Of a stretch of 64,000 nucleotides of DNA, positions 2-3,632 are shown piece after piece; position 1 is the first letter of the stretch; each line of letters begins with the position of its first letter. Under the pieces are notes generated by a model. That model did not search any database. It was given only the letters and a program-made list of their open reading frames with translations, and was not told the origin of the DNA. The position numbers were made by a program, and so were the translations under genes. Location of the stretch: assembly GCA_016839705.1 (NCBI GenBank), contig JAEOTR010000035.1, forward strand, positions 1 to 64,000. The letters run 5' to 3'. The DNA comes from Promethearchaeota archaeon (GTDB lineage: Archaea > Asgardarchaeota > Lokiarchaeia > Sigyniarchaeales > SOKP01).

Positions 2-145
2 GCGGCGTTTTCATTCTTTTTTGGCACTCGGACCCTTGATATTATGATAAGCTGGATAACTGCTTTCCTTTTTTGGGCTTTTATAGGTGCTCTGGTTTAC
101 TATATAATCATAAAAAAGAAAAGAAACAATAATTCAAGAAACTGA
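2..145 (+). CDS. 3' end of a membrane protein gene (partial, runs off window)
   Basis: Frame 2 is open from base 2: AAFSFFFGTRTLDIMISWITAFLFWAFIGALVYYIIIKKKRNNNSRN*, a TM helix plus basic tail; TGA at 143-145. Confidence 0.75.
   Translation, partial: AAFSFFFGTRTLDIMISWITAFLFWAFIGALVYYIIIKKKRNNNSRN
104..145 (+). repeat. imperfect direct repeat, copy 1 (gene 3' end)
   Basis: ATAATCATAAAAAAGAAAAGAAACAATAATTCAAGAAACTGA; matches 2132-2180. Confidence 0.75.
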
Positions 146-2207: not shown

Positions 2208-3632
2208 ATGAATGAAGAAGCAGAAAAAGTACTTACATTGGTAGCTGAAAGAGCTCAGTTAGCAGAAAGTGTTGAAGGAGTTCGTTCTATTTTGTTTCAT
2301 ATGTATCGTTTTCCTTCTCTTAAGAATAAAATATTATCTCAAAAAACAGGTATTGCTATTCCCACTCTTGCTGCTGTCAGAAATGAATTGGTTAAAGCCG
2401 GTATTATTGAAAGAAGGAATTTTCTTGGGGAAAAAGGAAGAGAGTGGGTAAAGATAAATTTGAATCTACACTTTGAATATGATCCCCTCCCTGAAAACTT
2501 TAATAATCTTATAAAAGAGTTACCAGAAGAATTCTCGTATTTAAATAATATTAAAGATTATCTTGATAAACGACCTGCTCCAGAGTTCGCACTTGATCAA
2601 TCCCATGCAGACATCTCGACAGTAATAAAAAAAACTCTCTTTTTAATAAAGCGTGGAGATATTGAGGGTAGAAACATCATTTTCTTGGGAGATGATGATC
2701 TCATATCTTTAGCAGTAGGTTTAACTAAATTAGCAAAAAATATTACTGTATTAGATATAGACAACAGAATTTTAAATTATATTTCCAAATCAGTAGAGGA
2801 ACTCTCATTAAATGATTTCAAGGTTATATCACATGATTTAAGAGAGCCATGTCCTGATGATATAGTAAACAAATTTGATGTTGTGATAATGGATCCCCCT
2901 TATACTAATGAAGGGCTAAGATTGTTTCTAAAAAGAGCTAGTCAAATCTTAAAATCGAATATTAATATTAACGGTAAGAATTACTCTTTAATTGGTAAGA
3001 AATGTCTTCTCAGCTTTGGGAACAAACCTCCAGAACAAATGCAGAGATTGCAATTTTCGATATTAGATCATGGTTTTATCATTAATGAAATGATTCCTGA
3101 TTTTAATCATTATAAGGGGGCTAGTATTATTGGAAAGTTTAGCCATCTCTATTACTTACAATCAATTAATAATCCCAGCAGTAAGTATAATCTCAGTCTT
3201 ACTACAGGTCCAATTTATACATCTGAAGTAAAATCAAAAACCAAGTCTCAATTTATTCCTATTGGGTACCACTTTCTGGGAGAAATGCGTTTTACCGACC
3301 AAGAAATTTTATTAGACAATGAAAGAATACATAACATATTTATAAATTCTCTTATATCTGCAGATTTAACTATTCTCGATATATACCAACATAATTACCA
3401 CCCTTATGGATACAGTTCTGTTACAATATTAAAAACAAGTCATGCTGCGATACATACATGGCCAGAACATGGATATCTTAGTATTGATATTTTCATCTGT
3501 GAAGAAAAATCTAAAGGATTGAAAGTATTAAAAATCCTGAAGAATAAATTTGATCCTGAAAAATCCGAATTTTTCTATATAGAAAGAGGAAATGAATCTA
3601 TGATGAATTATGAACCAATCAAATTAGAATAG
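2208..3632 (+). CDS. N4-bis(aminopropyl)spermidine synthase (BpsA-like) fused to a C-terminal pyruvoyl-dependent S-adenosylmethionine decarboxylase (SpeD/SpeH-like)
   Basis: N-terminal wHTH; RP...DQ, FLGDDDLISLA, DID, HDLR and MDPPY of BpsA; C-terminal GYHFLGE..YGYS..ILKTSHAAIHTWPEHGYLSIDIFIC of the AdoMetDC proenzyme. Confidence 0.85.
   Translation: MNEEAEKVLTLVAERAQLAESVEGVRSILFHMYRFPSLKNKILSQKTGIAIPTLAAVRNELVKAGIIERRNFLGEKGREWVKINLNLHFEYDPLPENFNNLIKELPEEFSYLNNIKDYLDKRPAPEFALDQSHADISTVIKKTLFLIKRGDIEGRNIIFLGDDDLISLAVGLTKLAKNITVLDIDNRILNYISKSVEELSLNDFKVISHDLREPCPDDIVNKFDVVIMDPPYTNEGLRLFLKRASQILKSNININGKNYSLIGKKCLLSFGNKPPEQMQRLQFSILDHGFIINEMIPDFNHYKGASIIGKFSHLYYLQSINNPSSKYNLSLTTGPIYTSEVKSKTKSQFIPIGYHFLGEMRFTDQEILLDNERIHNIFINSLISADLTILDIYQHNYHPYGYSSVTILKTSHAAIHTWPEHGYLSIDIFICEEKSKGLKVLKILKNKFDPEKSEFFYIERGNESMMNYEPIKLE

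What the first reader, a model, noticed from the sequence alone, without database searches (positions are those of the whole stretch)
2208..3632. Branched-chain polyamine synthase fused to a self-cleaving AdoMet decarboxylase
Seen: one 474-aa ORF carries the BpsA GDDD motif (aa 161-164) and DPP motif plus a complete SpeD-type C-terminal domain. Established: BpsA uses decarboxylated SAM to make N4-branched polyamines and is typical of (hyper)thermophiles; SpeD makes dcSAM and self-cleaves to form a pyruvoyl cofactor. Inference: the fusion would channel dcSAM directly, with cleavage at Ser411 leaving BpsA attached to the beta chain and releasing a 64-aa alpha chain. Branched polyamines in an AT-rich Lokiarchaeia-type organism would be unexpected. 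The SpeD fusions I know of involve linear spermidine synthase instead.
Basis: partly seen in the sequence, partly recalled or inferred. Interest (0 to 1): 0.8.

Follow-up and report, generated by a model that had tools for sequence, protein, structure and literature searches.

The report
Divergent polyamine enzyme fused to donor-maker
An Asgard archaeon has one gene joining an aminopropyl-transferring enzyme to the self-cleaving enzyme that makes its donor; the transferase belongs to an untested branch of a family thought confined to heat-loving microbes and may stand in for the missing spermidine synthase rather than make branched polyamines.

Summary
The fusion is real: one 474-aa ORF with a winged helix, a BpsA-fold transferase (GDDD 161-164) and a class 1b AdoMetDC (Ser411, His416, Cys431). 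At least 119 full-length homologues exist; 42 of 251 Asgard genomes sampled carry it, as do Xenorhabdus, Enterococcus and Clostridia, by at least two separate fusions. The scan noted it before on other genomes.

'Branched-chain synthase' is not established. The transferase keeps the donor site but lacks BpsA's Glu259, a 25-residue lid loop and most of the C-terminal acidic carrier cluster. It falls in a separate, large, uncharacterised DPPY subfamily (AU p=1e-5) that includes many mesophiles. The genome has no spermidine synthase, and 38 of the 42 fusion genomes lack one. A sister lineage without SpeD swaps the donor Asp for Ser and pairs with a PLP decarboxylase, which supports aminopropyl chemistry over methylation.

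Best reading: a self-supplying aminopropyltransferase (0.75), probably acting on putrescine, agmatine or homospermidine. Linear product about 0.4, branched about 0.25. Channelling is unsupported. The SpeD half has an odd Thr before Ser411. No paper found in the held library.

The parts
2208..3632 (+). Fusion ORF, 474 aa: winged helix + BpsA-fold transferase (DPPY subfamily) + class 1b AdoMetDC
2214..2462 (+). N-terminal winged-helix region (aa 3-85), homologous to the BpsA N-terminal domain
   Evidence: Pfam HTH_24 aa 26-68; HHalign to canonical BpsA covers it, probability 99.95; helices in the model
2541..3227 (+). BpsA-fold catalytic domain (aa 112-340)
   Evidence: PF01861 E 6.9e-49; 5xnc E 1.2e-28; Foldseek top hit 5xnf E 2.5e-21
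2688..2699 (+). GDDD (aa 161-164), dcSAM aminopropyl-binding motif, equals Tk-BpsA G157-D160
   Evidence: invariant in 120/120 homologues; mapping; role from PMC12979288
2892..2903 (+). DPPY (aa 229-232): D229 equals Tk D225; Tyr replaces Tk E228; marks the subfamily
   Evidence: Tyr in 146/150 subfamily representatives
3210..3227 (+). PIYTSE (aa 335-340): remnant of the BpsA C-terminal acidic cluster with one conserved acid (E340)
   Evidence: one acid in the 6 residues after YT in 115/120 homologues
3228..3263 (+). Variable interdomain linker (aa 341-352)
   Evidence: pLDDT under 50 at aa 344-349; low conservation
3264..3590 (+). Class 1b AdoMetDC (SpeD) domain, aa 353-461, with S403, S411, H416, W418-P419-E420, C431
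   Evidence: TM 0.87 (by target length) to T. maritima 1tlu
3435..3440 (+). Thr410-Ser411: predicted self-cleavage bond; Ser411 becomes the pyruvoyl group; Thr replaces the usual Glu
   Evidence: cleavage inferred from homology, not shown

Best explanation
A bifunctional, self-supplying aminopropyltransferase. (1) The C-terminal class 1b AdoMetDC cleaves itself at Thr410/Ser411, forms a pyruvoyl group and decarboxylates SAM (inferred from intact catalytic residues). (2) The tethered BpsA-fold domain binds dcSAM at GDDD and transfers the aminopropyl group to an amine (inferred). It belongs to an uncharacterised DPPY subfamily, not to BpsA proper (shown by tree and motifs). (3) In this organism the likeliest acceptor is a small amine the cell can make: agmatine, putrescine, or homospermidine from extra deoxyhypusine-synthase paralogues. 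The gene would then fill the slot of the missing spermidine synthase. A linear product (about 0.4) is somewhat more likely than an N4-branched one (about 0.25). The fusion ensures co-expression and proximity; true channelling is not implied.
For: AdoMetDC: the equivalents of Tm S63, H68 and C83, the residues PMC10407285 names as essential, and of S55, W70, P71 and E72 are present and 97-100% conserved. It is the only SpeD found in the genome. Arginine decarboxylase (PdaD) and agmatinase exist separately, and PdaD is in 25/29 family genomes, so the domain is not needed as an Arg or Orn decarboxylase.
Transferase: GDDD, D229 and Y302 (Tk D159/D160, D225, Y290) are invariant. Closest solved structures are BpsA, ten orders of magnitude ahead of methyltransferases.
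Coupling to SpeD recurs: fused in at least 13 of 150 subfamily representatives, fused or adjacent in 30 of 80 further loci, nearly all bacterial, adjacent in three more Asgard families. A single origin of all fusions is rejected (p 2e-5).
Natural contrast: Heimdallarchaeaceae (26/26) have the same subfamily with GDSD, no SpeD, and a dedicated PLP decarboxylase, absent from 9/9 SpeD-bearing genomes tested.
SpeE slot: no SpeE in this genome or in 38 of 42 fusion genomes, while 11/11 Asgard genomes with strong canonical-type BpsA matches have SpeE. No carboxyspermidine decarboxylase above cut-off in 56 genomes or among this genome's two paralogues.
Against: No activity is shown. Thr before the catalytic Ser is one of four SpeDC (ornithine decarboxylase) diagnostics, and this lineage's SpeD sits on a long branch (0.85). 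More than half of the family's genomes (about 36 of 61) lack the fusion, SpeE and SpeD altogether, so the cell need not make spermidine. Relatives in the same Asgard fusion clade sit in lipid head-group operons. The genomes are related, so the profile counts are not independent. The genome is 93% complete with 6.8% contamination.
Confidence: 0.6

Rival explanations
1. One reading: a true branched-chain polyamine synthase making N4-aminopropylspermidine or N4-bis(aminopropyl)spermidine (or a branched homospermidine analogue), possibly building spermidine from putrescine itself.
For: The only characterised relatives are BpsA enzymes. GDDD, D225 and Y290 equivalents are kept; Y316 maps to F311 and one C-terminal acid (E340) remains. 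Tk-BpsA has weak activity on short diamines (PMC12979288), so a missing SpeE does not exclude it.
Against: E259 and E228 equivalents are lost, the 25-residue loop after Y290 is deleted, and the five-acid carrier cluster that governs product specificity (PMC12979288) is cut to one acid. Grouping with canonical BpsA is rejected (p 1e-5). No SpeE. No reverse gyrase. The subfamily occurs in many mesophiles, while the review holds branched polyamines to be thermophile-specific.
Confidence: 0.25
2. The acceptor is not a free polyamine but a lipid head-group amine or another bound amine.
For: In the query's own clade, three proteins are followed directly by phosphatidylserine decarboxylase, two also by a CDP-alcohol transferase. 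In Hodarchaeales-type genomes the order is inositol-1-phosphate synthase, UbiA prenyltransferase, fusion, cytidylyltransferase-family gene. DPPY is the motif of amino-methyltransferases acting on macromolecules (own knowledge). Other subfamily members are fused to GNAT, MprF-type or carrier-protein domains, or follow NRPS-like genes.
Against: Phosphatidylserine decarboxylase was not found in this genome or in 25/25 genomes of its family. Here the gene has no conserved or lipid-related neighbours.
Confidence: 0.15
3. The C-terminal domain has changed substrate (ornithine or arginine decarboxylase, SpeDC/SpeDA type) or is inactive, and supplies the acceptor rather than the donor.
For: Thr at -1 in 119/119 homologues matches the SpeDC pattern. 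Long branch for this lineage. SpeD neofunctionalisation is common, typically in genomes lacking SpeE (PMC10407285).
Against: Only one of four SpeDC diagnostics: no Gln, no His-Phe, no Tyr-x-Asp. HTWPE and both candidate prolines are kept. Sister fusions have Glu or Ser at -1, so Thr is a local change. E. coli SpeD has Lys at -1 and is active (own knowledge). PdaD and agmatinase already supply agmatine and putrescine. No other SpeD was found to feed an intact GDDD site.
Confidence: 0.12
4. The N-terminal domain is an amino-methyltransferase (DPPY type) and the fusion is incidental.
For: DPPY motif; weak Pfam hits to N6-adenine and RsmD-like methylases; METTL5 and PH1948 are the next fold matches.
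Against: GDDD is invariant. BpsA is the far better match by sequence and fold. The subfamily has repeatedly joined a decarboxylase, either SpeD or a PLP enzyme, which makes no sense for methyl transfer.
Confidence: 0.05

Closest known systems
[quoted passage not shown]
   Same: Winged helix plus class I SAM-binding fold; DQ, GDDD, DID, DLR, DPP and N-x-Y motifs; about 23-26% identity.
   Different: DPPY for DPPE; no E259; lid loop deleted; one acid in place of the acidic cluster; separate clade; fused to SpeD; found without SpeE and in mesophiles.
Class 1b AdoMetDC (SpeD/SpeH; T. maritima 1TLU)
   Same: Full domain, 32% identity, TM 0.87; S55, S63, H68, W70, P71, E72 and C83 equivalents present.
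   Different: C-terminal fusion, so the beta chain carries a 350-residue transferase; Thr rather than Glu before the cleavage Ser.
Bacterial AdoMetDC-spermidine/spermine synthase fusions (Green et al. 2011 as cited in PMC12803844; ancestor of animal spermine synthase)
   Same: Same logic: donor-making pyruvoyl enzyme and aminopropyltransferase in one chain.
   Different: Those use the SpeE-type transferase with AdoMetDC at the N-terminus. Here the transferase is BpsA-type and AdoMetDC is C-terminal: an independent, reversed solution.
SpeDC/SpeDA neofunctionalised SpeD homologues (PMC10407285)
   Same: Thr before the catalytic Ser; host genome lacks SpeE.
   Different: Three of four SpeDC diagnostics are absent; the domain is fused to a dcSAM-type transferase; the genome has its own arginine decarboxylase.

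Membership tests
BpsA (EC 2.5.1.128) | BpsA fold (winged helix + class I SAM-binding domain), PF01861 above cut-off | tested here: met
BpsA (EC 2.5.1.128) | GDDD motif (Tk D159, D160) for dcSAM | tested here: met
   aa 161-164, 120/120
BpsA (EC 2.5.1.128) | Acceptor-site residues D225, E259, Y290, Y316 | tested here: not met
   D229 and Y302 kept; E259 region is NKPP with no conserved acid; Y316 maps to F311 and is variable in the subfamily
BpsA (EC 2.5.1.128) | C-terminal acidic cluster (E339, D342, D343, E344, E345 in the review's numbering) carrying the aminopropyl ester | tested here: not met
   PIYTSE; one acid in 115/120 homologues
BpsA (EC 2.5.1.128) | Groups with canonical BpsA in a tree | tested here: not met
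   AU p 1.2e-5, quick LG+G4 tree of 36 rows. Canonical rows are Asgard proteins with full-length matches to 5xnc, one shown at E 4e-116; Tk and Tt sequences themselves were not in the tree
BpsA (EC 2.5.1.128) | Host is a (hyper)thermophile | tested here: inconclusive
   No reverse gyrase; charged-minus-polar bias 4.7 is mesophile-like, but IVYWREL gives 53 C (inflated in AT-rich genomes, own knowledge); marine sediment runs hold the gene
BpsA (EC 2.5.1.128) | Forms N4-branched polyamines | not testable with these tools
   needs an enzyme assay
Class 1b AdoMetDC | Domain above PF02675 and TIGR03330 cut-offs, matching fold | tested here: met
Class 1b AdoMetDC | Processing residues S63, H68, C83 (T. 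maritima) | tested here: met
   S411, H416, C431, 99-100% conserved
Class 1b AdoMetDC | Conserved Pro separating AdoMetDC from SpeDA | tested here: inconclusive
   The figure is not held, so the position is unknown; both candidates (P399, P419) are invariant
Class 1b AdoMetDC | Self-cleavage and SAM decarboxylation | not testable with these tools
   needs expression
SpeDC (pyruvoyl ornithine decarboxylase) | Four diagnostics Gln, Thr, Phe, Tyr | tested here: not met
   1 of 4 (T410); positions read from the OCR of Fig. S5

The most novel reading that the evidence does not exclude
The DPPY subfamily is a separate, widespread class of aminopropyltransferase with a mechanism unlike BpsA's acidic relay. 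Fused to AdoMetDC it is the single-gene route to aminopropyl polyamines (or an aminopropylated lipid) in many Asgard archaea that lack SpeE. Its Heimdallarchaeaceae sister uses intact SAM followed by PLP decarboxylation, an undescribed route to the same kind of product.
Probability: 0.35. Interest if true: 0.8.

Novelty: new variant of a known kind. Interest (0 to 1): 0.58.

Why it matters
Both likely outcomes change current statements. A branched product would overturn the 2026 review's view that BpsA orthologues and branched polyamines are confined to thermophiles (PMC12979288). A linear product would define a SpeE-independent spermidine-type synthase of BpsA fold. Either way it speaks to which polyamines Asgard archaea, the relatives of eukaryotes, can make when they lack SpeE but keep deoxyhypusine synthase (56/56 genomes). 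The question is directly testable with the E. coli delta-speD and delta-speE complementation and LC-MS assays already used in this field (PMC10407285, PMC9992855), and cultured bacteria carry a parallel fusion. Databases label these proteins 'adenosylmethionine decarboxylase' or 'bis-aminopropyl spermidine synthase family', which hides the architecture and over-calls the product.

Tried and rejected
Complex prediction of the transferase domain against a SpeD dimer: no verdict (score 0.01); not used for or against contact or channelling.
No RNA holder listed.
Class 2 AdoMetDC search (PF01536) found nothing, but no control rang, so it is uninformative.
The weak PF01564 hit in this genome looks by its sequence like a 3-hydroxyacyl-CoA dehydrogenase, not SpeE.
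The two alanine-racemase-fold decarboxylases are LysA (beside a DapF-like gene) and a LysA-like paralogue, neither NspC. A saccharopine-dehydrogenase-family gene exists; it was not shown to be carboxyspermidine dehydrogenase.
No PotA above cut-off; polyamine uptake is not excluded.
Deoxyhypusine-synthase copy number does not cleanly complement the fusion.
In the SpeD tree the pelagiphage HTVC109P protein falls inside the query's clade on a branch of 4.2; rejected as long-branch attraction. Monophyly of Asgard fused SpeD domains was not rejected (p 0.46) and not shown.
The careful 91-row tree did not finish; quick trees were used. Long rows were left out.
Promoter and terminator scan is at chance level.
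Literature: eight searches found no description of the fusion or subfamily; most subscription papers, including the primary BpsA structure papers, are not held. PMC2847442 was not available.
A first genome scan with a broad alignment failed for lack of conserved words.

Full report
OBSERVATION. The ORF at 2208-3632 encodes 474 aa. Pfam gives BpsA_C at 112-330 (E 6.9e-49), AdoMet_dc at 355-461 (E 1.9e-27) and a winged helix at 26-68; TIGR03330 passes its cut-off. GDDD is at 161-164, DPP at 229-231 and Ser411 would yield a 64-aa, 7.57-kDa alpha chain. AlphaFold gives mean pLDDT 90 and pTM 0.71, with a low-confidence linker at 344-349. Foldseek's best matches are BpsA (5xnf, E 2.5e-21) and T. maritima AdoMetDC (TM 0.87 by target length). 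The fusion is not an artefact: 119 of the top 120 homologues carry both domains at 64-85% identity, mostly labelled Promethearchaeota/Lokiarchaeota, and a contig from another study spans the junction. Earlier first-stage notes flagged the same fusion on other genomes.

DISTRIBUTION. Among 251 Asgard genomes, the two domains lie in one frame in 42: 25 in the window's family, 16 in a Hodarchaeales-type family and one elsewhere. Three other Asgard families keep speD directly beside an unfused PF01861 gene. A profile of the transferase finds 835 clusters at E up to 1e-30. Of the top 150, 146 have DPPY and at least 13 carry a SpeD domain, among them Xenorhabdus, Enterococcus and Lachnospiraceae proteins. 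In 80 further loci, nearly all bacterial and mostly from mesophiles, SpeD is fused in 20 and adjacent in 10. Trees place the Asgard fusions in one clade (SH-aLRT 99) and the bacterial fusions in another (99); one origin for all is rejected (p 2e-5).

IS IT BpsA? I mapped T. kodakarensis residues through a canonical Asgard BpsA that aligns to 5xnc over its length, using the roles given in PMC12979288. Kept: GDDD (D159, D160), D225 (D229) and Y290 (Y302). Changed: E228 to Y232; E259 replaced by an NKPP segment with no conserved acid; Y316 to F311; the 25-residue loop after Y290 is deleted; the C-terminal acidic cluster, which carries the aminopropyl ester and sets product specificity, is reduced to PIYTSE with one acid in 115 of 120 homologues. 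Joining the Asgard fusions to canonical BpsA is rejected (p 1e-5). So the donor half of the site is BpsA-like and the acceptor half is not. It works like BpsA in chemistry but fails three membership tests.

AMINOPROPYL OR METHYL? DPPY is also an amino-methyltransferase motif (own knowledge), and METTL5-type folds are the next matches. Two things favour aminopropyl transfer. First, the repeated coupling to SpeD. Second, a natural contrast: all 26 Heimdallarchaeaceae genomes have the same subfamily, with GDSD in the nine loci read, no SpeD and no SpeE, and all 26 carry a particular PLP decarboxylase, next to the gene in 25. A sister genome with GDGD has that decarboxylase too; nine SpeD-bearing genomes do not. 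Losing the Asp that binds the dcSAM amine and gaining a downstream decarboxylase is what one expects if SAM is used intact and decarboxylated afterwards (inference). This is one evolutionary event, not 27.

THE SpeD HALF. S411, H416 and C431 match the three residues essential for processing in T. maritima (PMC10407285), and S403, W418, P419 and E420 are also kept. The residue before Ser411 is Thr in all 119 homologues, one of four SpeDC diagnostics; the other three are absent. Sister fusions have Glu or Ser there, and this lineage's SpeD is on a long branch, so a substrate shift cannot be excluded. Against it: the genome has PdaD and agmatinase, PdaD is in 25 of 29 family genomes, and no other SpeD was found.

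WHAT IS THE ACCEPTOR? This genome (93% complete) has no SpeE and no NspC. It has arginine decarboxylase, agmatinase and three deoxyhypusine-synthase homologues, two of them in tandem beside PdaD, an arrangement like the SpeY homospermidine clusters of PMC13625781. SpeE is missing from 38 of 42 fusion genomes but present in all 11 with strong canonical-type BpsA matches. The simplest reading is that the fusion aminopropylates agmatine, putrescine or homospermidine in place of SpeE. Caveats: kin are not independent; many relatives lack all three genes; Tk-BpsA has weak activity on diamines, so one enzyme could go on to branch. A further lead points elsewhere: in the query's own clade three proteins precede phosphatidylserine decarboxylase, and the Hodarchaeales-type genes lie between a UbiA prenyltransferase and a cytidylyltransferase-family gene. 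That decarboxylase was not found in this genome or 25 relatives, so a lipid acceptor gets 0.15. Here the gene is flanked by oppositely oriented, unrelated genes.

TEMPERATURE. No reverse gyrase; composition proxies disagree (charged-minus-polar 4.7, IVYWREL 53 C). The host is unlikely to be a hyperthermophile; moderate warmth is not excluded.

MECHANISM, shown versus inferred. Shown: domain order, residue conservation, clade placement, gene profiles. Inferred: self-cleavage, SAM decarboxylation, aminopropyl transfer, acceptor identity. After cleavage the transferase stays on the beta chain; alpha and beta normally remain associated in an (alpha-beta)2 dimer (own knowledge). Nothing here supports a tunnel between the sites.

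VERDICT. A real, recurrent fusion not described in the papers I could search, built on an uncharacterised subfamily of the BpsA fold. Odds: AdoMetDC plus aminopropyltransferase of some kind about 0.75-0.8; linear polyamine product about 0.4, branched about 0.25, lipid or other bound amine about 0.15.

Noticed in passing
L092:4888-7412, L095:2007-4622, L031-L033, L035, L036, L039, L094 (Heimdallarchaeaceae); G025:C42: BpsA-like gene with GDSD, head-to-head with a PLP decarboxylase, in genomes without SpeD or SpeE (26/26 have the decarboxylase). Candidate for an undescribed route: aminocarboxypropyl transfer from intact SAM, then decarboxylation. Possibly more novel than the assigned finding.
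   Followed up: partly
L024:746-1126, L025-L030; L175:5010-5516, L179:5210-5563: SpeD genes beside the unfused subfamily member have Thr in place of the catalytic Ser (7/7 in one Asgard family, 2 Bathyarchaeia). Would give a 2-oxobutyryl cofactor or an inactive protein.
   Followed up: no
L119:6001-9095, L121:3620-5795, L108:2084-5204, L098:4872-9065: Asgard fusion genes in lipid head-group operons (PS decarboxylase, CDP-alcohol transferase, inositol-1-phosphate synthase, UbiA).
   Followed up: partly
L152, L167, L171, L174 (Paenibacillus); L146, L182, L190: Recurrent order: (large NRPS-like gene), DPPY-subfamily gene, GNAT, FkbH-like, sometimes a carrier protein. Suggests aminopropylation in a natural-product pathway.
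   Followed up: no
window 104-145 and 2132-2180: Imperfect direct repeat (with a 7-nt insertion) bracketing the opposite-strand 630-aa gene at 155-2047, just upstream of the fusion; fits insertion of that gene with duplication of the upstream gene's 3' end.
   Followed up: partly
L042:5730-8633 (G000:C9:83729-86632): Two tandem deoxyhypusine-synthase paralogues head-to-head with pyruvoyl arginine decarboxylase; the tandem pair recurs in six relatives and single copies beside PdaD in many more. Possible archaeal SpeY-type homospermidine module.
   Followed up: partly
L096:3031-5456: In another Asgard family speD overlaps a 678-aa protein with a signal-like N-terminus and a C-terminal BpsA-like domain.
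   Followed up: no
L042:1232-3166: 644-aa fusion of a class I methyltransferase and a D-Ala-D-Ala-ligase-like ATP-grasp domain near the polyamine genes.
   Followed up: no
L093:3977-4825: Heimdallarchaeaceae carry a second, short (about 285 aa) BpsA-like paralogue without the winged helix.
   Followed up: no
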